Source: a virus (Duplodnaviria; Heunggongvirae; Uroviricota; Caudoviricetes). Taken from it: 8,588 nt of DNA. The position numbers and the translations under genes were made by a program. Shown in pieces: positions 613 through 8,588 of this stretch (positions are counted from its first letter, which is position 1; each line of letters opens with the position of its first letter). The stretch is from the IMG/VR virus record IMGVR_UViG_2563366821_000008. The stretch is one strand, 5' to 3'. Under the pieces are notes generated by a model. It ran no database searches, was not told the DNA's origin, and was given only the letters and a program-made list of their open reading frames with translations.

Positions 613-626
613 AAAGAATAAAAAAA

Positions 627-658
627 TCCCGCAGTGATCGCGGACAGGAACTGCGGGA
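627..658 (-). terminator. Intrinsic-terminator-like hairpin, oriented for - strand transcription
   Basis: Perfect 8-bp stem tcccgcag (627-634) / ctgcggga (651-658) with a 16-nt loop. On the + strand it is preceded by an A-run (620-626), so on the - strand the stem is followed by U7. It lies 15 bp downstream of the I stop codon. Confidence 0.5.
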
Positions 659-822
659 GAGTTACGAAGATTAAGTGTAAGGAATTATTCTTATATCACG
701 ACAAAAAAATTAACGCAGAGAAATTATACGCGCCACAGTCAGTTTGTGAAAATGTGAAGATATTCAGAATTTTTATGCCATTACCGGTTTTAACCAACAG
801 GATTATCGGTGGGCATGAAAGA

Positions 823-858
823 AAACCCCGGTATCTGCTGATACCGGGGTTTCTCTTT
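823..858. terminator. Strong hairpin with pyrimidine/T-rich tracts on both sides (possible bidirectional terminator or structured RNA element)
   Basis: Perfect 10-bp stem ccccggtatc (826-835) / gataccgggg (840-849) with a 4-nt loop tgct, extendable by three A:T pairs (823-825 with 850-852). + strand 3' flank is tttctcttt; - strand 3' flank is ttttctttc. Confidence 0.45.
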
Positions 859-955
859 AGCATGGCAGAAATGTGTTTCATGCTTTTCGGGCGAAGGATA
901 TCCGACTTCTGTACGGAATGGCAAGTGGCGGTTAATTTATTCAGGGGAAGGCTGT

Positions 956-3900
956 ATGGGAAAAGGTGGCGGTAAGGCACACACGCCTCGTGAGGCGAAG
1001 GATAATCTCAAATCCACGCAGATGATGAGTGTGATTGATGCGATTGGTGAGGGACCGATAGAAGGTCCGGTGAAGGGACTGCAGAGTATTCTGGTGAACA
1101 AAACCCCGCTGACGGACACGGACGGTAATCCCGTGATACACGGTGTGACTGCGGTCTGGCGTGCCGGGGAGCAGGAGCAGACACCACCGGAAGGCTTTGA
1201 GTCCTCCGGAGCTGAAACCGGACTGGGCGTGGAAGTGACGAAGGCAAAACCGGTGACGCGCACCATTACGTCCGCGAACATTGACCGCCTGCGGGTTACC
1301 TTCGGGGTGCAGTCACTGGTGCAGACCACGTCAAAGGGCGACCGTAATCCTTCCTCTGTCCGGATTCTGATTCAGTTACAGCGTAATGGCCGCTGGGTGA
1401 CGGAAAAGGATGTCACCATTAACGGCAAGACCACCTCGCAGTTCCTGGCCTCGGTGATTCTGGATAATCTGCCTCCCCGGCCCTTTAACATCCGGATGGT
1501 CAGGGAGACGGCGGACAGCACCACGGACCAGCTGCAGAATAAGACGCTGTGGTCGTCATACACCGAAATCATCGATGTGAAACAGTGCTACCCGAACACG
1601 GCCATTGTGGGGCTGCAGGTGGATGCGGAGCAGTTCGGCGGCCAGCAGATGACGGTGAACTACCATATCCGCGGTCGCATCATCCAGGTGCCGTCAAACT
1701 ATGACCCGGAAAAACGCACGTACAGTGGTATCTGGGACGGCAGCCTGAAACCGGCATACAGCAACAACCCGGCCTGGTGTCTGTGGGACATGCTGACTCA
1801 CCCGCGCTACGGCATGGGAAAACGTCTGGGGGCGGCGGATGTGGACAAGTGGGCGCTGTATGCCATCGGGCAGTACTGCGACCAGACGGTCCCGGATGGT
1901 TTCGGGGGGACCGAGCCGCGGATGACCTTTAATGCGTACCTGGCACAACAGCGTAAGGCGTGGGACGTTCTCAGTGATTTCTGCTCTGCGATGCGCTGTA
2001 TGCCGGTATGGAACGGCCAGACGCTGACGTTCGTTCAGGACCGTCCGTCGGATGTGGTGTGGCCGTACACCAACAGCGATGTGGTGGTGGATGATAACGG
2101 CGTGGGTTTCCGCTACAGCTTCAGTGCCCTGAAGGACCGGCACACGGCAGTGGAGGTGAATTACACCGACCCGCAGAACGGCTGGCAGACCTCCACGGAA
2201 CTGGTGGAAGACCCGGAAGCCATACTGCGCTACGGACGCAACCTGCTGAAGATGGACGCGTTCGGCTGTACCAGCCGCGGTCAGGCCCACCGTGCCGGGC
2301 TGTGGGTGATAAAGACCGAACTGCTGGAAACGCAGACGGTGGATTTCACGCTCGGGTCACAGGGGCTGCGTCACACACCCGGTGACATCATTGAAATCTG
2401 TGATAACGACTATGCCGGGACCATGACCGGCGGACGTGTCCTGTCCATCGATGCCGCCAGCCGTACCCTGACGCTGGACCGGGAGGTGACACTGCCGGAG
2501 ACCGGCACGGCCACTGTTAATCTGATTAACGGCAGCGGTAAGCCGGCGAGCGTGGCCATCACCGCACACCCCGCGCCTGACCGGATACAGGTCAGCACCC
2601 TGCCGGATGGTGTGGAGACATACGGTGTGTGGGGACTCTCCCTGCCGTCACTGCGTCGTCGCCTGTTCCGCTGTGTCTCCATCCGGGAAAACACGGACGG
2701 CACCTTTGCCATCACGGCGGTGCAGCACGTACCTGAAAAAGAAGCCATCGTGGATAACGGGGCCCGCTTTGAGCCGCAGTCAGGCACCCTGAACAGCGTT
2801 ATCCCACCGGCAGTGCAGCACCTGACGGTGGAGGTGAGTGCAGCTGACGGTCAGTATCTGGCACAGGCGAAATGGGACACGCCGCGGGTGGTGAAGGGTG
2901 TGCGCTTCAGTCTGCGTCTGACCAGCGGAAGCGGAGAAGACAGCCGTCTGGTGAGCACCGCCAGCACCGCAGACACGGAGCACCGTTTCAGCGGTCTGCC
3001 GCTGGGGGAATACACCCTGACGGTGCGGGCCATTAACAGCTACGGCCAGCAGGGCGAACCTGCGACCACCACCTTCCGGATTAACGCGCCTGCAAAACCC
3101 GCCACCATTGAGCTGACGCCGGGGTATTTTCAGATAACGGCGGTACCGGTGCTGGCGGTGTATGACCCGACGGTGCAGTTTGAGTTCTGGTTTTCGGAAA
3201 AACGCATCACGAACACGGCACAGGTGGAAAAATCTGCCCGTTATCTGGGGACCGGCAGTCAGTGGACTGTCCAGGGCGATCGGATTAAGCCGGGGATGGA
3301 TTTCTGGTTTTATGTGCGCAGTGTCAACCTGGTGGGCAAGTCTGCATTTGTGGAAGCCAGCGGGCAGGCCAGCAATGATGCAAAAGGGTATCTGGAATTT
3401 TTCCGTGGTCTGATAGATGAGACGCTGCTGGGGCAGGCACTGAAAAAGCGCATTGATGCGTCAGCCCTGCGATCGGATGTCACTCAACTGGAAGAGAATA
3501 TCGGACAACTGGAAGAAGACATCCGTCAGCGGATGGACACGGATATTGCGGAAGTGACCCGGAAAATCGGGGAGGCGGAAAACAGCCTCACGCAGCTGGT
3601 TGCGAAAAAGAATGAGGATCAGACGCTGGCCATCGCGCAGGTGAGTCAGAAAGTGGACCGTGTCAGCAGTGAAATCTCACAGACGGTCAGTCAGAGCAGT
3701 GAGGAAAATACCCGACAGATAGCACAGGTCCGCCAGTACGTGGACAAAAAGCAAAGTGAAATCAAGCAGACAGTCAGCCAGGGCCAGTCAGAAAACGCCC
3801 GGCAGATAGCACAGGTCCGTCAGTACGTGGATGAAAAAGGGAGTGAAATTGCCTCGACCACGGATAAAAAACTGGGTGACCAGGCCGTGACCATACAGCA

Positions 3901-4756
3901 AATCCAGCGGGTTCAGTCAGACACGCGCGATAATCTGAATGCCATGTATATGCTGAAGGTGCAGAAAACGAAGAAGGGTATTCCGTATGTGGCCGGGATT
4001 GGCGCGGGGATCGAGGATGTCGATGGTCAGACGCTGAGTAACATTCTGCTGCAGGCCGATCGCATTGCGATGATTACTCCGGAGAACGGTAACACCACGC
4101 CGTTATTTGTGGCGCAGGGGAATCAGCTGTTCATGAACGACGTGTTCCTGAAGCGACTGTTTGCGGTGAGCATCACGTCATCCGGCAATCCTCCGACGTT
4201 TTCCCTGACGCCGGATGGCAGGCTGACAGCCCGCAATGCGGATATCAGTGGAGCCATCACGGCGAATACCGGCACGCTCAATAATGTCACCATTAACGAG
4301 AACTGTGTCATCAGAGGGAAACTGTCTGCAAACCAGATTGAAGGCGATCTCGTTAAAACAGTGGGTAAGGCTTTCCCCCGTGACTCCCGTGCACCGAAGC
4401 GTTGGCCATCAGGAACCATTACCGTCAGGGTTTATGACGATCAGCCGTTTAACCGGCAGATTGTTATTCCGGCGGTGGCTTTCAGCGGTGCCAGACATGA
4501 GCGGGAGAACAGCGATACTTATTCGTCATGCCGCCTGATAGTGAAGAAAAACGGTGCTGAAATTTATAACCGTACCGCGATGGATAATACGCTGGTTTAC
4601 AGTGGTGTTATTGATATGCCTGCTGGTCGCGGCCACATGACGCTGGAGTTTTCTGTATCAGCATGGTGGGTAAATGGCTGGTATCCCACAGCAAGTATCA
4701 GCGATTTGCTGGTTGTTGTGATGAAGAAAGCCACTGCAGGCATCACGATTAGCTGA
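956..4756 (+). CDS. J: Host specificity protein J (central tail fibre / tip attachment protein), 1266 aa
   Basis: ATG at 956 preceded by ggggaagg. N-terminus [22 protein letters not shown]..., and motifs such as [51 protein letters not shown] and [32 protein letters not shown], match lambda gpJ as I recall it. It is about 130 aa longer than lambda J (recalled as ~1130 aa) because of an internal coiled-coil expansion. Confidence 0.95.
3668..3850 (+). repeat. In-frame 87-bp tandem direct repeat (2 full copies plus the start of a third) inside J
   Basis: The motif agtgaaat recurs at 3668, 3755 and 3842 (period 87 bp = 29 codons). Translated copies are [29 protein letters not shown] and [29 protein letters not shown], followed by SEIAST. 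The nucleotide copies are near-identical in the cagatagcacaggtccg(c/t)cagtacgtgga core. Confidence 0.85.
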
Positions 4757-4774: not shown

Positions 4775-4800
4775 GGGCGCCAGAAATGGCGCCTTTTTTA
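4775..4800 (+). terminator. Rho-independent terminator downstream of J
   Basis: Palindromic stem ggcgcc (4776-4781) / ggcgcc (4788-4793), loop agaaat, followed by tttttt (4794-4799). It begins 19 bp after the J stop codon. Confidence 0.7.
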
Positions 4801-4823
4801 TTGCAGAAAAGCGAGAGGTAATT

Positions 4824-5423
4824 ATGCGTAAATTATGTGCTGCTATTTTGTCCGCAGTAGTCTGGCTGGTTGCCGCTGGTACGCCTGCATGGGCAGCAGA
4901 GCATCAGTCCACACTGAGCGCGGGGTATCTTCATGCCCGTACGAACGCTCCCGGCAGCGATAATCTGAACGGGATTAACGTGAAATACCGTTATGAGTTT
5001 ACGGACACGCTGGGGCTGATTACGTCTTTCAGTTATGCCGACGCAGAGGATGAACAAAAAACGCATTACAACGATACCCGCTGGCATGAAGATTCCGTGC
5101 GTAACCGCTGGTTCAGCGTGATGGCGGGGCCGTCTGTACGCGTGAATGAATGGTTCAGCGCGTATGCGATGGTGGGTGTGGCTTACAGCCGTGTGTCGAC
5201 TTTCTCCGGGGATTATCTCCGCGTAACTGACAACAAGGGGAAAACGCACGATGTGCTGACCGGAAGTGATGACGGTCGCCACAGCAACACGTCTCTGGCG
5301 TGGGGGGCTGGCGTGCAGTTTAACCCGACCGAATCCGTGACCATTGACCTTGCTTATGAAGGTTCCGGTAGTGGCGACTGGCGAACGGATGCATTTATTG
5401 TTGGTATCGGATACCGTTTCTGA
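4824..5423 (+). CDS. lom: Lom-like outer membrane protein (Ail/Lom family 8-strand beta-barrel), 199 aa
   Basis: ATG at 4824 preceded by gagagg. Signal peptide MRKLCAAILSAVVWLVAAGTPAWA with an AxA cleavage motif. GINVKYRYEFTD, SVMAGP, SAYAMVGVAYSR and the C-terminal IDLAYEGSGSGDWRTDAFIVGIGYRF (aromatic terminal residue) match lambda Lom as I recall it. The position directly after J is as in lambda. Confidence 0.9.
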   Translation: MRKLCAAILSAVVWLVAAGTPAWAAEHQSTLSAGYLHARTNAPGSDNLNGINVKYRYEFTDTLGLITSFSYADAEDEQKTHYNDTRWHEDSVRNRWFSVMAGPSVRVNEWFSAYAMVGVAYSRVSTFSGDYLRVTDNKGKTHDVLTGSDDGRHSNTSLAWGAGVQFNPTESVTIDLAYEGSGSGDWRTDAFIVGIGYRF

Positions 5424-5529
5424 CAACAGACGCCGATTTATCTTCTGTAAATATTGTTATGATACGCAGGTTCATCCACCTTATGGGGTGAACTGCGTTT
5501 GAGGAAACGTAAAGTTACACTGTCCTGAA

Positions 5530-5561
5530 GCCCGTGGCGTCACTGCTGCGGGCTTTTTTTA
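5530..5561 (+). terminator. Rho-independent terminator downstream of lom
   Basis: Stem of about 10 bp including G:U pairs (gcccgtggcg / tgctgcgggc) with loop tcac, followed by ttttttt (5554-5560). Immediately upstream of the stf ribosome-binding site. Confidence 0.65.
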
Positions 5562-5574
5562 TTGGTGGAAAAGT

Positions 5575-7641
5575 ATGACAGTAAAAATTTCTGGCGTGCT
5601 TAAAGATGGCACAGGAAAACCAGTACAGAACTGCACCATTGTGCTGAAGGCCAGACGAACCAGCAGCACGGTGGTGGTGAACACGGTGGCCTCTGAAAAT
5701 CCGGATGAAGCCGGACGTTACAGCATGGATGTTGAGCATGGTCAGTACAGCGTCACCCTGCTGGTTGAAGGTTTTCCGCCTTCACATGCCGGGACCATTA
5801 CCGTCTATGAAGGTTCCAGACCAGGTACGCTGAATGATTTTCTCGGCGCCATGACGGAGGATGATGTCCGTCCGGAGGCACTGCGCCGTTTTGAGCTGAT
5901 GGTGAATGAAGTGGCACGTCATGCCGGAGCGTCATCACAGAGTGCAGCGGCGGCAAAGAAATCCGAAACGGCAGCAGCCTCATCGAAGAATGCGGCGAAA
6001 ACCTCAGAAACGAATGCAGCTAACAGCGCACAGGCGGCAGCGGCCTCGCAGACTGCATCGGCAAACTCCGCGACAGCAGCCAAAAAATCAGAAACCAGCG
6101 CGAAAAATAGCGAGACAGCCACAAAGGCCAGCGAAAAAAACGCAAAATCCAGCCAGACGGCAGCGAAAACCAGTGAGACGAATGCCAAAGACAGTGAAGC
6201 CAACGCAAAGGTGAGCGAAACAGCGGCGGCGAACTCGGCGAAAGCATCGGCAGCAAGCCAGACGGCAGCAAAAGCAAGTGAAGATGCTGCCAGAGAATAC
6301 GCAAACCAGACAGCAGAGCCGTACAGATATGTTTTACAGCCGCTGCCGGATGTGTGGATACCCTTTAATGATTCGCTGGATATGATTACGGGCTATTCTC
6401 CGGGTTATAAAAAAGTGAAGATTGGTGATAATGTGGTTCAGGTTGCCAGTGATAAACAGGTTAATTTCAGTCGCGCATCAACGGCAACATATATCAACAA
6501 ATCTGGCGAACTGAAAACGGCGGAAATTAATGAGCCACGATTTGAGTGTGATGGCCTGCTTATTGAGGGGCAAAGAACGAACTTCTTCCCGAACAGTACA
6601 GACCCTTCGAAGTGGAATAAGTCAACTTCACTGGACGTTACAGAAACAGGCACAGATAGTTTCGGGTTTAATTATGGCCGGTTTGTCGTACAGGATTCGA
6701 TTGTTGGTACAAGTAAAGCGCATACCATTATCGGACTGTATTCGAGTACCGGAGGGGTTGATACTTCAGGGGACGAAAAGCATGTAACTATATCCTGTCG
6801 GGTAAAAAGTGAAGTTGATAATATCGCCGTTCGTATTTTATTTGAACATTATGATGGGGAGGTAAGGACATCAATAGGAGCAGCAAACCTGAACCTTACC
6901 ACCCGCATAATTAGCAAGACAGGTCAGACAAGCCGTGTTACAGCAAGGTCTGTTAAGGATGATGCAACTGGCTGGATATTTTTTGAGGCTACATTAAAAG
7001 CAGATACAACAGAAAATACGGTTGGTGGTTTTGTCCAGTATTCTCCGGATACAGGGCAGATGGTTGCATCAGGGGATTATCTCGATGTAACCACTCCACA
7101 GATTGAGGCTGGTACAGGCGCATCATCTTTTATTGTTACGGGGACGGCACCGGTAACGCGGGCAAGCGATATGGTTACAGTTCCGATTAAGAATAATCTT
7201 TATAATCTTCCTTTTACGGTTCTTTGTGAGGTACATAAGAACTGGTATAAAACGCCAAATGCAGCGCCACGTGTTTTTGATACCGGCGGTCATCAAACCG
7301 GAGCGGCTATTATTCTTGGCTTCGGATCTTCGGCAGATGGGCCAGACGGATTTCCTTATTGCGATATTGGTGGATCAAATAGGCGTGTTAACGAAAACGC
7401 ATCGTTGAAAAAAATGGTTATGGGGATGCGTGTAAAGTCAGATCAGTCTACATGTGCAGTAAGTAACGGGCGTATATCCAGCGAAACAAAAACCACATGG
7501 GAATATATCCGGAGTACAGCAATCATTCGCATTGGTGGACAAACTACAGCAGGATTACGCCATTTATTTGGGCATGTGAGGAATTTTCGTCTCTGGCATA
7601 AAGAGCTAACAGATGCGCAGCTTGGGGAGGTTGTGGAGTGA
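5575..7641 (+). CDS. stf: Side tail fibre protein Stf, mosaic: lambda-like N-terminal domain and heptad-repeat shaft joined to a non-lambda C-terminal domain (688 aa)
   Basis: N-terminus MTVKISGVLKDGTGKPVQNCTIVLKAR...GQYSVTLLVEGFPPSHAGTITVYE matches lambda Stf as I recall it. It is followed by an Ala/Ser/Thr/Lys-rich 7-residue repeat shaft, then an AT-richer C-terminal region of about 440 aa ending ...GHVRNFRLWHKELTDAQLGEVVE, which resembles the end motif of LamG-like / concanavalin-like jelly-roll domains (tentative). Confidence 0.9.
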   Translation: MTVKISGVLKDGTGKPVQNCTIVLKARRTSSTVVVNTVASENPDEAGRYSMDVEHGQYSVTLLVEGFPPSHAGTITVYEGSRPGTLNDFLGAMTEDDVRPEALRRFELMVNEVARHAGASSQSAAAAKKSETAAASSKNAAKTSETNAANSAQAAAASQTASANSATAAKKSETSAKNSETATKASEKNAKSSQTAAKTSETNAKDSEANAKVSETAAANSAKASAASQTAAKASEDAAREYANQTAEPYRYVLQPLPDVWIPFNDSLDMITGYSPGYKKVKIGDNVVQVASDKQVNFSRASTATYINKSGELKTAEINEPRFECDGLLIEGQRTNFFPNSTDPSKWNKSTSLDVTETGTDSFGFNYGRFVVQDSIVGTSKAHTIIGLYSSTGGVDTSGDEKHVTISCRVKSEVDNIAVRILFEHYDGEVRTSIGAANLNLTTRIISKTGQTSRVTARSVKDDATGWIFFEATLKADTTENTVGGFVQYSPDTGQMVASGDYLDVTTPQIEAGTGASSFIVTGTAPVTRASDMVTVPIKNNLYNLPFTVLCEVHKNWYKTPNAAPRVFDTGGHQTGAAIILGFGSSADGPDGFPYCDIGGSNRRVNENASLKKMVMGMRVKSDQSTCAVSNGRISSETKTTWEYIRSTAIIRIGGQTTAGLRHLFGHVRNFRLWHKELTDAQLGEVVE
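5935..6300 (+). repeat. Degenerate 21-bp (7-codon) tandem repeat region encoding the Stf shaft
   Basis: The translation parses into heptads (AKTSETN / AANSAQA / AAASQTA / SANSATA / AKKSETS / AKNSETA / TKASEKN / AKSSQTA / AKTSETN / AKDSEAN / AKVSETA ...). The repetition also generates long spurious ORFs in other frames and on the opposite strand. Confidence 0.8.
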
Positions 7642-7916
7642 GAGATTTCACGTTGCGTTTCAGTGATAAAGCAGATTTCAGGGCATTTCTCAGGAAACTT
7701 AACTGGGAAGAGGACGAAGAGCTGCAGAATGCCGTTCTGGTTGATGAGATTGGTTTTACGTTCAGTGAGTCAGGTGTTTCTGCTGACGGGGAGCCAGAAT
7801 ACACGCGAAACGAAGGGTACTTTGTTAATATCCGTCTTCTTGACGATGGCTTTGATGATTCCGTGTTCCGTGAGTGGGTGGTTACACCAGAGCGCCCGCT
7901 CAGGGAGTGGTTTTAA
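7638..7916 (+). CDS. Hypothetical acidic 92-aa protein, translationally coupled to stf (candidate fibre-specific chaperone/assembly factor)
   Basis: GTG start at 7638 overlaps the stf stop (gtGTGa) and is preceded by ggggagg at 7624-7630. There is no in-frame ATG anywhere in the ORF. The protein is highly acidic (many D/E), with no hydrophobic segment. I recognise no family. The overlapping alternative-frame ORF 7663..7965 translates to an Arg/Cys-rich product that does not look protein-like. Confidence 0.6.
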   Translation: MRDFTLRFSDKADFRAFLRKLNWEEDEELQNAVLVDEIGFTFSESGVSADGEPEYTRNEGYFVNIRLLDDGFDDSVFREWVVTPERPLREWF

Positions 7917-7925
7917 GGATAGCAG

Positions 7926-8222
7926 ATGGATATCACGTCGATACTTCATGCAATTTGTGCAGTAGCCGTACAGGGGCTGGTTGGGTGCATTACCGGTGAC
8001 TGGGCTTATGGTGCAGCCATTGCCTGTACGTTTTTTGTTGCCCGCGAATATACCCAGGCAGAATATCGCTGGATTAAGCGTTTTGGTGATGGTCACCGAC
8101 AGAACATGCCGTGGTGGGGCGGTTTTGATCCGCGTGTGTGGAATGTGGCCAGTCTGATGGATTTTGTGGTGCCGGTGGTGGCCTGTGCGGGATTGTATGG
8201 CTGTATGCTGATTTTTAGCTGA
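7926..8222 (+). CDS. Hypothetical small integral membrane protein, 98 aa (2-3 predicted TM segments)
   Basis: ATG at 7926 with aagga 6 nt upstream, 9 bp after the previous stop. Hydrophobic segments ILHAICAVAVQGLVGCI, YGAAIACTFFVA and VASLMDFVVPVVACAGLYGCMLIF. A lipobox-like LVGC occurs at residues 18-21, but the N-region carries no positive charge. A hairpin follows the stop codon. Confidence 0.6.
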   Translation: MDITSILHAICAVAVQGLVGCITGDWAYGAAIACTFFVAREYTQAEYRWIKRFGDGHRQNMPWWGGFDPRVWNVASLMDFVVPVVACAGLYGCMLIFS

Positions 8223-8339: not shown

Positions 8340-8588
8340 TTATTGCATAAACCAGTCGTCCGCGGTTTGCCAGACTTCCTGTAGTGTTTCCTGTACGAAC
8401 TCCAGTGCTGATTCTTTATCGACGGCTCTTAAAATGGTGAGTCCATCATTGCTGGCAGATTTAACGATCACATCTGCATCGTCATATCGCTTACCTATGC
8501 GGCGCAGCATTTCTTGCTGCAGAGCAGGAACAGAACCTTTCGGCATTTTGCTGATTTTTTCTTTAGCGATACAGATCTCAACACGCAT
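8340..8588 (-). CDS. dinI: DinI-family DNA-damage-inducible protein (prophage DinI-like), 82 aa
   Basis: Translation [35 protein letters not shown]...[14 protein letters not shown] has the length and the MR(I/V)E..IAK start and W..ADDWF end of E. coli DinI as I recall it. The start codon lies exactly at the window edge, so the promoter and any LexA box are outside the window. Confidence 0.85.

What the first reader, a model, noticed from the sequence alone, without database searches (positions are those of the whole stretch)
4300..4756. Divergent C-terminal receptor-binding region of J with a local composition shift
The C-terminal ~150 residues keep the lambda J architecture (WPSG...DDxPFxRQIV...VIDMPAGRG) but are substantially diverged from the LamB-binding lambda sequence as I recall it. 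The DNA is locally AT-richer and shows relaxed codon bias: long ORFs open in other frames (4123-4419 on the - strand, 4236-4538 on the + strand), which is rare elsewhere in J. This suggests an exchanged specificity determinant targeting a receptor other than LamB.
Basis: partly seen in the sequence, partly recalled or inferred. Interest (0 to 1): 0.4.

Follow-up and report, generated by a model that had tools for sequence, protein, structure and literature searches.

The report
Common OmpC-type receptor-binding tip of J
The end of this prophage's tail-tip gene J is a real, swappable receptor-binding module that differs from phage lambda's, but it is the commonest type in E. coli and its closest tested relative binds the porin OmpC, so it is ordinary.

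Summary
The window is the I-J-lom-stf tail region of an E. coli lambdoid prophage. Positions 4300-4756 encode the last 151 residues of an intact 1266-aa gpJ: the Pfam Ig_GpJ_C receptor-binding domain plus its linker.

- **Divergence is real.** The region is 43% aa and about 57% nt identical to lambda J. A similarity breakpoint lies at about 4294-4331.
- **Composition shift is modest.** It is the lowest-GC3 part of J (0.52 against 0.74 in the hub). The decline starts near 3100-3200, and lambda, Sakai and phi330 J show the same drop.
- **The ORF argument is wrong.** Eleven other alternative-frame ORFs of at least 60 aa lie elsewhere in J.
- **The module is common.** It is 99.4% aa identical to phages PhiR49_2 and PhiR40_1. 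It is 88-89% identical to VT1-Sakai J, whose C-terminus matches my reconstruction of the '1A2' graft. The literature shows that graft needs OmpC, not LamB.
- **Relatives.** The A8/phi330 type (62%) also uses OmpC and has a solved OmpC complex (9wcb). Related DNA occurs in 3369 of 5426 complete E. coli genomes.

The receptor is probably OmpC, inferred by homology and not tested for this allele. Half of the 20 differences from 1A2 lie at known specificity hot spots, so the OmpC-allele range may differ. Interest is low.

The parts
956..4756 (+). Gene J (tail tip / central fibre protein gpJ), intact, 1266 aa
   Evidence: ORF list and translation. Pfam hits FNIII-A_GpJ, Phage-tail_3, Ig_J, Ig_J_second, Phage_Tail_Tip and Ig_GpJ_C are all above the curated cut-offs.
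956..3082 (+). Mosaic segment 1: hub domains and first Ig/FNIII domains, VT1-Sakai-like
   Evidence: 86-98% nt identity to VT1-Sakai in 150-nt windows (mostly 93-97%; 6.8% divergence over 2300-3083), and 59-87% to lambda and PhiR49_2. Max chi-square breakpoints at 3083 (Sakai) and 3074 (PhiR49_2). GC3 0.736.
3083..4330 (+). Mosaic segment 2: second Ig domain end, alpha-helical shaft and beta-prism fibre (Phage_Tail_Tip, aa 980-1107). PhiR49_2-like, foreign to VT1-Sakai and lambda
   Evidence: Mostly 90-100% identity to PhiR49_2 outside the insertion (lower, with gaps, across about 3356-3880, where PhiR49_2 is 34 aa shorter), and 58-73% to Sakai and lambda where alignable. GC3 0.647.
3539..3877 (+). 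Insertion of about 113 aa, helix-like by sequence, in the shaft relative to lambda J. It contains an 87-nt (29-aa) tandem repeat at 3668-3839
   Evidence: The blastp alignment to lambda J skips window aa 862-974. Gaps against lambda and Sakai appear in the nt alignment. TRF finds period 87, 2.0 copies. Sequence shown.
4235..4753 (+). Specificity region (aa 1094-1266), homologous to lambda J aa 959-1132 and starting at NADISG. This is the same junction used for the 1A2 and A8 grafts
   Evidence: Alignment; PMC6646904; chimera sequences in PMC11338833 supplement 1. Identity: PhiR49_2 99.4%, VT1-Sakai/1A2 88.4%, A8 62%, lambda 46.6%.
4361..4753 (+). Ig-like receptor-binding domain (Pfam PF12421 Ig_GpJ_C, aa 1136-1266)
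   Evidence: 130.5 bits against cut-off 26.2, full-length match 1-135/135. Best PDB sequence match is 9wca 'A8 gpJ 713' (E = 5e-110), ahead of lambda gpJ 8xcj (3.6e-90).
4373..4402 (+). Variable loop [10 protein letters not shown] (aa 1140-1149), homologous to the lambda S1012 hot spot. K1148 is specific to this allele (E in PhiR49_2, AH20K059 and 1A2)
   Evidence: A8 has a 4-aa deletion here. Lambda residue 1012 maps to window aa 1147.
4487..4519 (+). Variable loop [11 protein letters not shown] (aa 1178-1188), homologous to the lambda 1048-1049 indel hot spot. Five of the 20 differences from 1A2 lie here
   Evidence: A8 carries a 5-aa insertion here. A loop is predicted between strands in the low-confidence AF2 model.
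4580..4594 (+). Loop MDNTL (aa 1209-1213), homologous to the lambda 1077-1078 hot spot
   Evidence: M1209L; V1214I is adjacent.
4661..4693 (+). Variable loop [11 protein letters not shown] (aa 1236-1246), homologous to the lambda D1107 hot spot. W1238 and G1241 differ from 1A2 (L, N)
   Evidence: Lambda residue 1107 maps to window aa 1242.
4123..4419 (-). Chance alternative-frame ORF (98 aa), not a gene
   Evidence: Interrupted by a stop in AH20K059, which differs by only 2 nt between 3950 and 4800. It is one of 13 such ORFs inside J.
4236..4538 (+). Chance alternative-frame ORF (100 aa), not a gene
   Evidence: 9 internal stops in lambda and 1 in VT1-Sakai at the homologous position.
4775..4804 (+). 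Terminator-like hairpin with T-run, 19 nt after the J stop codon
   Evidence: Consensus scan: 8-bp stem, 6 GC pairs, TTTTTATTGC tail. Function not tested.
4824..5423 (+). lom (Ail/Lom outer-membrane protein): the downstream neighbour, not part of the receptor-binding domain
   Evidence: Pfam Ail_Lom, E = 9.6e-127.

Best explanation
Positions about 4235-4753, with the core domain at 4361-4753, encode the C-terminal specificity module of the trimeric central tail fibre gpJ of a lambdoid prophage. The module is an Ig-like receptor-binding domain belonging to the VT1-Sakai/'1A2' clade, not the lambda clade.

The most likely mechanism, by analogy with lambda gpJ-LamB and A8 gpJ-OmpC, runs as follows. 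The three domains at the fibre tip insert their distal loops into the extracellular face of a trimeric porin, most probably OmpC. Binding spreads the bottom of the trimer. The change is then relayed up the beta-prism fibre and the alpha-helical shaft to open the tail tip for DNA ejection.

Shown here: homology, domain identity, mosaic boundaries, purifying selection and prevalence.

Inferred: the receptor (OmpC) and the conformational relay.

The lower GC3 is a shared property of this module in all four J types compared here, not evidence of recent import.
For: - **Domain identity.** Pfam Ig_GpJ_C full-length at aa 1136-1266. The best PDB sequence match is 9wca 'A8 gpJ 713', ahead of lambda gpJ.
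- **Solved complex.** 9wcb holds three OmpC chains, and the 'A8 gpJ 713' sequence is deposited in 9wca and 9wcb (6 chains in total). I read this as a receptor-binding-domain:OmpC complex solved for the sister clade.
- **Closest tested relative.** The 173-aa region is 88.4% identical to VT1-Sakai J. That sequence is residue-for-residue my reconstruction of the Eligo '1A2' graft.
- **Receptor evidence from the literature.** 1A2 and A8 lambda particles transduce lamB ompC double-deletion cells only when complemented with OmpC. 1A2 uses EDL933-type OmpC but not K-12 OmpC (PMC11338833). Phage phi330, whose J tip is A8-type, fails to plate on a BW25113 ompC deletion and is rescued by ompC (PMC12502783).
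- **The module works in live phages.** PhiR49_2 and PhiR40_1 carry a 99.4% identical module.
- **Selection.** dN/dS against VT1-Sakai is 0.18-0.21, which indicates purifying selection.
- **Module boundary.** Breakpoints lie at about 4294-4331. This fits the recombining 'specificity region' of PMC6646904.
- **Mechanistic template.** PMC11101478.
Against: - No experiment exists for this allele.
- It differs from 1A2 at 20 of 173 residues. Ten of these lie within 4 residues of the four lambda specificity hot spots (hypergeometric P = 0.003), including a charge reversal (K1148 for E) and W1238 and G1241 in the loop homologous to lambda D1107. Receptor or OmpC-allele choice could therefore differ.
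- In lambda and phi21, one to four substitutions in this region are enough to add OmpF or OmpC use (PMC6646904, PMC11336670).
- Gifsy-1 J binds OmpC plus OmpX and BtuB (PMC12312913), so a single-receptor assumption may be too simple.
- Whether this prophage is inducible is unknown.
- The single-sequence structure model was of low confidence (pLDDT 47.5), so loop assignments rest on alignment.
Confidence: 0.78

Rival explanations
1. The module belongs to the 1A2/Sakai clade, but its hot-spot substitutions have shifted it to a different receptor. That could be another porin such as OmpF, PhoE or OmpN, or a set of OmpC alleles not overlapping that of 1A2.
For: - Ten of the 20 differences from 1A2 cluster at the four specificity hot spots (P = 0.003).
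- Few substitutions suffice to change porin use in lambda and phi21.
- 1A2 and A8 already differ in which OmpC alleles they accept.
- An allele of at least 99% nt identity is the best match in 281 genome records, so it forms a distinct sub-clade.
Against: - 88% identity, with no indels relative to 1A2. In natural J homologues, lineage-defining changes are indels at these loops.
- Overall purifying selection (omega about 0.2).
- Phages with 86-91% identical tips are propagated on the same hosts (ECOR13, E. coli C) as those with the 99% allele.
Confidence: 0.15
2. The module still binds LamB like lambda J, and its divergence is neutral drift on a conserved fold.
For: It has the same fold family (Ig_GpJ_C) and shared motifs WPSG, DDxPFxRQIV and DMPAGRG.
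Against: - Only 43-47% identity to lambda, with all four contact-loop regions replaced.
- The 88%-identical 1A2 graft works in lamB-deleted cells and depends on OmpC.
- Wild-type lambda particles do not transduce lamB ompC double-deletion cells complemented with OmpC.
Confidence: 0.03
3. The composition shift marks a recent import of the receptor-binding domain from an AT-richer donor genome into this particular phage.
For: The region has the lowest GC3 in J (0.52), and the change point at nt 4313 coincides with the similarity breakpoint. Fisher p is about 0.009 with independently set boundaries.
Against: - The same GC3 drop is seen in lambda, VT1-Sakai and phi330 specificity regions.
- The unsupervised change point is not significant (p = 0.10), and the main shift lies at nt 3191.
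- dS to VT1-Sakai is equal (0.24) in the hub and in the receptor-binding domain. The domain is therefore as old a partner of this hub as in Sakai, and the shaft is the piece of different ancestry.
- GC falls further into lom (0.54) and stf (0.48), a regional gradient.
Confidence: 0.1
4. The overlapping ORFs 4123-4419 (minus strand) and 4236-4538 (plus strand) are real embedded genes.
For: They are 98-100 aa long. The minus-strand ORF is also open in lambda, PhiR49_2 and VT1-Sakai.
Against: - Thirteen such ORFs occur in J.
- The plus-strand ORF has 9 stops in lambda and 1 in Sakai.
- The minus-strand ORF is broken in AH20K059, which differs by only two substitutions between 3950 and 4800.
- The substitution pattern fits selection on the J frame (omega about 0.2).
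Confidence: 0.01

Closest known systems
VT1-Sakai (O157:H7 prophage Sp15) J C-terminus, which matches my reconstruction of the '1A2' gpJ graft of Brodel et al. 2024 (PMC11338833)
   Same: Same length with no indels, and 153/173 residues identical from NADISG to the end. Same Ig_GpJ_C domain and the same junction with the fibre. Functionally tested: dependent on OmpC, independent of LamB.
   Different: Twenty substitutions, half of them at specificity hot spots (K1148E, R1180K, R1183K, N1185H, S1186T, T1188I, M1209L, V1214I, W1238L, G1241N). The OmpC-allele range of the window allele is untested. In VT1-Sakai itself the J gene is frameshifted.
J of Escherichia phages PhiR49_2 and PhiR40_1 (temperate phages from the ECOR collection; Brenes and Laub 2025, cited in PMC13190303)
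   Same: 99.8% nt and 99.4% aa identity across the specificity region, and the same shaft type from about nt 3080 on. These are viable, plaque-forming phages propagated on ECOR13.
   Different: One residue differs in the specificity region (K1148 here, E there). PhiR49_2 has a lambda-like hub (58-87% nt identity over 956-3055 in 150-nt windows) and a shaft 34 aa shorter. No receptor has been published for them in the papers I could read.
A8 gpJ / phage phi330 J tip (PDB 9wca, 9wcb; PMC11338833; PMC12502783)
   Same: Same domain family and the shared C-terminal strand [18 protein letters not shown]. It uses OmpC. The solved structure includes an OmpC trimer.
   Different: Only 62% identical, with a 4-aa deletion and a 5-aa insertion in two loops. 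A8 accepts K-12 OmpC, whereas 1A2 does not.
Lambda gpJ receptor-binding domain (PDB 8xcj, 8xck; Ge and Wang 2024, PMC11101478)
   Same: Same architecture (hub, FNIII, alpha-helical shaft, beta-prism, Ig-like receptor-binding domain) and the presumed same signalling mechanism. Shared motifs WPSG, DDxPFxRQIV and DMPAGRG.
   Different: Lambda binds LamB. Identity is 43-47% in the specificity region. Lambda lacks the shaft insertion of about 113 aa.

Membership tests
Lambda-type tip attachment protein J, C-terminal receptor-binding domain (Pfam PF12421 Ig_GpJ_C) | Significant full-length match to the family profile at the extreme C-terminus of a gpJ-type protein | tested here: met
   130.5 bits (cut-off 26.2), profile positions 1-135 of 135, aa 1136-1266.
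Lambda-type tip attachment protein J, C-terminal receptor-binding domain (Pfam PF12421 Ig_GpJ_C) | Sits on a complete gpJ with hub, FNIII/Ig and tail-tip fibre domains, in an I-J-lom-stf gene context | tested here: met
   All gpJ Pfam domains found in order. Lambda_tail_I lies upstream; Ail_Lom and phage_tail_N lie downstream. Synteny with lambda, VT1-Sakai and PhiR49_2.
Lambda-type tip attachment protein J, C-terminal receptor-binding domain (Pfam PF12421 Ig_GpJ_C) | Ig-like beta-sandwich fold with four distal loops | tested here: inconclusive
   The single-sequence AF2 model is all-beta but has pLDDT 47.5, so no fold search was run. Fold is inferred from sequence matches to 9wca and 8xcj (E = 5e-110 and 3.6e-90).
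Recombining J 'specificity region' module (Maddamsetti et al. 2018) | Phylogenetic history of the last approximately 173 residues is decoupled from the rest of J, with recombination breakpoints | tested here: met
   Three-segment mosaic with breakpoints at about 3074-3083 and 4294-4331. The receptor-binding domain is shared with phages that have different hubs and shafts.
OmpC-using gpJ tips (1A2/VT1-Sakai and A8/phi330 types) | Close sequence homology to a tip shown experimentally to need OmpC | tested here: met
   88.4% identity to 1A2/VT1-Sakai and 62% to A8/phi330. Functional data from PMC11338833 and PMC12502783.
OmpC-using gpJ tips (1A2/VT1-Sakai and A8/phi330 types) | Infection or adsorption depends on OmpC and not on LamB | not testable with these tools
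   Needs plating or adsorption assays on ompC and lamB deletion hosts. The only circumstantial point is that phages with tips at least 86% identical are recorded on ECOR13 or E. coli C, and none on MG1655.
OmpC-using gpJ tips (1A2/VT1-Sakai and A8/phi330 types) | Conservation of the residues that contact OmpC in the solved complex (9wcb) | not tested
   Coordinates and contact lists are not available through these tools, and no paper for 9wca or 9wcb was found.
LamB-binding lambda-type tip | High identity to lambda J aa 960-1132, including residues around 1012 and 1107 | tested here: not met
   46.6% identity. All four hot-spot loops differ in sequence.

The most novel reading that the evidence does not exclude
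The sub-clade allele carried here (K1148, the RHERENSDT loop, W1238, G1241) has a receptor range distinct from 1A2. That range could be a different set of OmpC alleles, for example those of extraintestinal pathogenic lineages such as CE10 or ABU 83972 where the closest copies of this window occur, or an additional or alternative porin. If so, the handful of hot-spot substitutions would be a natural example of the receptor-shift steps seen in lambda and phi21 laboratory evolution.
Probability: 0.2. Interest if true: 0.35.

Novelty: already known. Interest (0 to 1): 0.14.

Why it matters
It matters little as a discovery. Modular exchange of the J specificity region is documented (PMC6646904). 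OmpC-using J tips of this clade are already characterised and engineered (PMC11338833) and solved structurally for the sister clade (9wcb). DNA at least about 88% identical occurs in 62% of complete E. coli genomes.

The practical value is modest. This allele could extend the set of natural gpJ tips used to retarget lambda-based delivery particles to particular OmpC variants. Its 20 differences from 1A2 form a compact, testable set for mapping which loop residues set OmpC-allele range.

Tried and rejected
- **Overlapping genes.** Rejected for the two alternative-frame ORFs. They are not conserved and are typical of this GC-rich gene.
- **Sharp local composition step.** The unsupervised GC3 change-point analysis puts the significant shift at nt 3191. 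The step at 4313 has p = 0.10.
- **Recent import of the receptor-binding domain.** Not supported. dS to VT1-Sakai is equal in the hub and in the domain, and the module has low GC3 in all four J types compared.
- **Structure prediction.** The single-sequence AF2 model was too poor (pLDDT 47.5) to use for a fold search or loop mapping.
- **Literature.** No paper was found for PDB 9wca or 9wcb. Brenes and Laub 2025, the source of the PhiR phages, is not in the held library. No paper was found for phage 2G7b, so its isolation host is unknown to me.
- **RNA families.** Rfam scans of the window, and of the I-J spacer at a permissive threshold, gave nothing credible.
- **1A2 sequence quality.** The 1A2 DNA in the supplement is OCR-damaged with indels. 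A direct tblastn broke into frames. I repaired the reading frame by eye, and the result matched the VT1-Sakai J C-terminus at 173/173 residues.
- **FhuA- and BtuB-using J proteins.** None of HK022, N15 or phi80 appeared among the tblastn rows listed. From my own knowledge, their tips are not homologous to this domain.
Full report
**What the window is.** The 8588-nt window is the distal tail region of an E. coli lambdoid prophage.
- The genes, in order, are: the 3' part of tail assembly gene I (31-612); a 343-nt AT-rich spacer; J (956-4756, 1266 aa); lom (4824-5423); a side-tail-fibre gene (5575-7641); two small conserved phage ORFs; and a dinI-like gene on the minus strand.
- Megablast finds related DNA in 4980 of 5426 complete E. 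coli genomes. The best full-length matches are 97.5-98.2% identical, in strains AH20K059, CE10 and others. In AH20K059 the prophage end abuts btsS/btsR.
- Among deposited phages, the closest over most of the window are PhiR49_2 and PhiR40_1.

**Checking the observation.**
- The finding's coordinates (4300-4756) cover J residues 1116-1266.
- The quoted motifs are there: WPSG at aa 1150, [10 protein letters not shown] at aa 1161 and VIDMPAGRG at aa 1218. Lambda has the corresponding WPSG, DDHPFDRQIV and DMPAGRG.
- Divergence from lambda is real. Identity is 42.8% over these 151 residues and 46.6% over the 173-residue specificity region, against 71.6% over aa 1-861.
- The two alternative-frame ORFs exist, but they are not 'rare elsewhere in J'. 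Eleven more of at least 60 aa lie between 937 and 3413, the longest being 198 aa.
- Neither ORF is conserved. The plus-strand ORF has 9 stops in lambda and 1 in VT1-Sakai. The minus-strand ORF is broken in AH20K059, which differs from the window at only two positions between 3950 and 4800. They are chance ORFs and say nothing about codon bias.

**Composition.**
- GC is 0.50 for 4300-4756 against 0.57 for J as a whole. GC3 is 0.517, and only 0.8% of 151-codon windows in J are as low.
- The decline is stepwise. GC3 is 0.736 for the hub (956-3082), 0.647 for the shaft (3083-4330) and 0.518 for the tip.
- The only change point that clears a permutation null is at aa 746 (nt 3191). The second, at aa 1120 (nt 4313), has p = 0.10. 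With independently defined boundaries, Fisher p is about 0.009.
- The same drop appears in the specificity regions of lambda (0.615), VT1-Sakai (0.561) and phi330 (0.552), against 0.72-0.76 in the N-terminal parts measured for lambda and phi330. GC continues to fall into lom and stf.
- The lower GC3 is therefore a property of this module, and of this end of the late operon, in lambdoid phages generally. It is not a signature of a recent event here.

**Mosaic structure.** I aligned J plus lom with lambda, PhiR49_2, VT1-Sakai and AH20K059 and scored 150-nt windows. Three segments emerged:
- **Hub, 956 to about 3080.** Identity in 150-nt windows is 86-98% to VT1-Sakai (mostly 93-97%) but 59-87% to lambda and PhiR49_2.
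- **Shaft, about 3080 to 4330.** Identity to PhiR49_2 is mostly 90-100% outside the insertion, where PhiR49_2 is 34 aa shorter. It is only 58-73% to VT1-Sakai and lambda where alignable.
- **Tip, about 4330 to 4756.** Identity is 99-100% to PhiR49_2 and 82-95% to VT1-Sakai in windows (91.5% over 4331-4756), and about 57% to lambda.

Max chi-square breakpoints fall at 3083 and 3074, and at 4331 for VT1-Sakai (chi-square 85). A weak one falls at 4294 for lambda.

Against VT1-Sakai, synonymous divergence is the same in the hub and in the tip (dS 0.24 in both). The shaft is the unrelated piece. Relative to its nearest relatives, this J carries a swapped shaft rather than a newly swapped tip. The tip is simply one that travels with several hubs and shafts.

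**What the region is.**
- Pfam places Ig_GpJ_C, the 'C-terminal receptor binding domain', at aa 1136-1266. The match is full-length at 130.5 bits against a cut-off of 26.2. Phage_Tail_Tip lies at aa 980-1107.
- The stretch from NADISG (aa 1094, nt 4235) to the end corresponds to lambda J residues 959-1132. This is the 'specificity region' of Maddamsetti et al. 2018.
- That paper showed the region holds 97% of the OmpF-gain substitutions. It also showed that it is an independently recombining module, with lineage-defining indels at residues 1012, 1048/49, 1077/78 and 1107 (PMC6646904).
- Ge and Wang 2024 describe the lambda protein as hub domains, two FNIII domains, an alpha-helical shaft, a beta-prism fibre and an Ig-like receptor-binding domain. 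Four bottom loops of that domain insert into LamB. Binding spreads the trimer base, and the change is relayed upward to open the tail (PMC11101478).

**Which receptor.**
- The best PDB sequence match is not lambda gpJ but 'A8 gpJ 713' (9wca/9wcb, E = 5e-110, against 3.6e-90 for 8xcj).
- Entry 9wcb also holds three chains of OmpC. I read this as a solved gpJ-tip:OmpC complex.
- A8 and 1A2 are lambda gpJ chimeras carrying natural prophage C-termini, made by Brodel et al. 2024. Both deliver DNA into lamB ompC double-deletion cells only when OmpC is supplied.
- A8 accepts both K-12 and EDL933 OmpC, while 1A2 accepts only the EDL933 type. Between them they cover 21 of 23 OmpC variants (PMC11338833).
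- I reconstructed the 1A2 graft from the OCR-damaged DNA in the supplement. The result is 173/173 identical to the VT1-Sakai J C-terminus and 88.4% identical to the window. Over aa 1116-1266 the identity is 89.4%.
- A8 is 62% identical to the window. The A8-type tip is also that of phage phi330, which cannot plate on a BW25113 ompC deletion and is rescued by ompC (PMC12502783).
- By homology, the window's tip is therefore a LamB-independent, most probably OmpC-binding module. This is inference, because no assay exists for this allele.
- One circumstantial point: of 55 phage records with a tip at least 86% identical, those with a recorded laboratory host were on ECOR13 (4) or E. coli C (2), and none on MG1655. 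This is in line with 1A2's failure on K-12 OmpC.

**How this allele differs from 1A2.**
- There are 20 substitutions and no indels.
- Ten substitutions lie within 4 residues of the positions homologous to the four lambda hot spots, where 22% would be expected (hypergeometric P = 0.003).
 - K1148 (E in 1A2, PhiR49_2 and AH20K059) sits next to the S1012 homologue.
 - Five changes lie in [11 protein letters not shown] (aa 1178-1188).
 - M1209 and V1214 flank the 1077/78 site.
 - W1238 and G1241 lie next to the D1107 homologue.
- dN/dS against VT1-Sakai is 0.18-0.21 in the tip and 0.08 in the hub. This indicates purifying selection overall, with a higher amino-acid substitution rate in the tip.
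- This pattern leaves room for a different OmpC-allele range, which is the only mildly novel reading.

**Prevalence and novelty.**
- DNA at least about 88% identical to 4331-4756 occurs in 3369 of 5426 complete E. coli genomes, with a median of 2 copies. Matches of at least 99% are the best hit in 281 records, and one record (MCJCHV-1) is 100% identical.
- The module, its modular exchange, and OmpC use by its clade are all in the literature. The identical tip is already deposited and annotated as 'tail tip host specificity protein J'.
- I rate it 'already known', with low interest.

**Side observations.**
- **Shaft insertion.** The shaft carries an insertion of about 113 aa, helix-like by sequence, relative to lambda (aa 862-974). 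It contains a 29-aa tandem repeat (87 nt, 2 copies, 3668-3839). Some form of it is in 726 genomes. The full-length version is at least 99% identical in only 12 records, and in the listed matches the aligned copy is about 108 nt shorter.
- **I-J spacer.** The spacer (613-955) is 343 nt, against 60 nt in lambda, with GC about 0.41. It has a minus-strand promoter-like site (11/12 match) and a minus-strand terminator-like hairpin that would bracket a transcript of about 95 nt. Several sequence blocks are conserved with VT1-Sakai and phi330. Rfam, Pfam and PHROGs give nothing there.
- **lom.** The gene has a dense patch of 24-25 substitutions at 4843-4955 relative to relatives that are nearly identical across the neighbouring J tip.

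Noticed in passing
window 3539-3877 (tandem repeat at 3668-3839): J carries an insertion of about 113 aa, helix-like by sequence, in the alpha-helical shaft relative to lambda and VT1-Sakai. It includes two copies of a 29-aa (87-nt) repeat (SEI.QTVSQ...[11 protein letters not shown]). The length is polymorphic: PhiR49_2 is 34 aa shorter. The full-length form is at least 99% identical in only 12 genome records, and in the listed matches among the other 716 the aligned copy is about 108 nt shorter. It may set fibre length; its function is unknown.
   Followed up: partly
window 613-955: The I-J spacer is 343 nt (60 nt in lambda) with GC about 0.41. It has a minus-strand sigma-70-like promoter (TTCACA-16-TATAAT, 750->723) and a minus-strand terminator-like hairpin (644->628 plus a T-run), which would bracket a transcript of about 95 nt. 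A second strong hairpin lies at about 826-850. Blocks are conserved with VT1-Sakai and phi330, although the -35 hexamer is not. There is no Rfam, Pfam or PHROG match. It is a possible small RNA or regulatory element.
   Followed up: partly
window 3083-4330 against 956-3082 and 4331-4756: Relative to VT1-Sakai J, the hub and the receptor-binding tip show the same synonymous divergence (dS 0.24), while the shaft between them is unrelated (58-73% nt identity). The shaft, not the tip, is the exchanged piece in this lineage.
   Followed up: yes
window 4843-4955 (lom, about codons 7-44): A dense patch of 24-25 substitutions relative to PhiR49_2 and AH20K059, which are nearly identical across the neighbouring J tip. 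It looks like a small recombination patch near the N-terminus of Lom.
   Followed up: no
window 4775-4804 and 5527-5566: Terminator-like GC-rich hairpins with T-runs lie directly after J and after lom, so lom is flanked by terminator-like hairpins.
   Followed up: no
window 5575-7641: The side-tail-fibre gene (688 aa) has the prophage tail fibre N-terminal domain, then an Ala/Ser/Thr/Lys-rich low-complexity stretch (aa about 115-245). That stretch explains the strong AT skew at 5850-6300. The C-terminal part matches phrog_1419 (tail protein). It is probably a second host-range determinant, but its target is unknown.
   Followed up: partly
window 7638-8222 and 8340-8588; L004 11337-14501: Two small conserved phage ORFs of unknown function (phrog_1361, phrog_1443) are followed by a dinI-like gene on the minus strand. 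In strain AH20K059 the homologous prophage end abuts btsS/btsR. This resembles VT1-Sakai, whose record gives its attachment site as yehV.
   Followed up: partly
L003 1350-4822 (VT1-Sakai): The J gene of VT1-Sakai, whose C-terminus matches my reconstruction of the functional '1A2' graft, is annotated as two CDSs truncated by a mutation. The tip sequence evidently remains functional when grafted onto lambda J.
   Followed up: no
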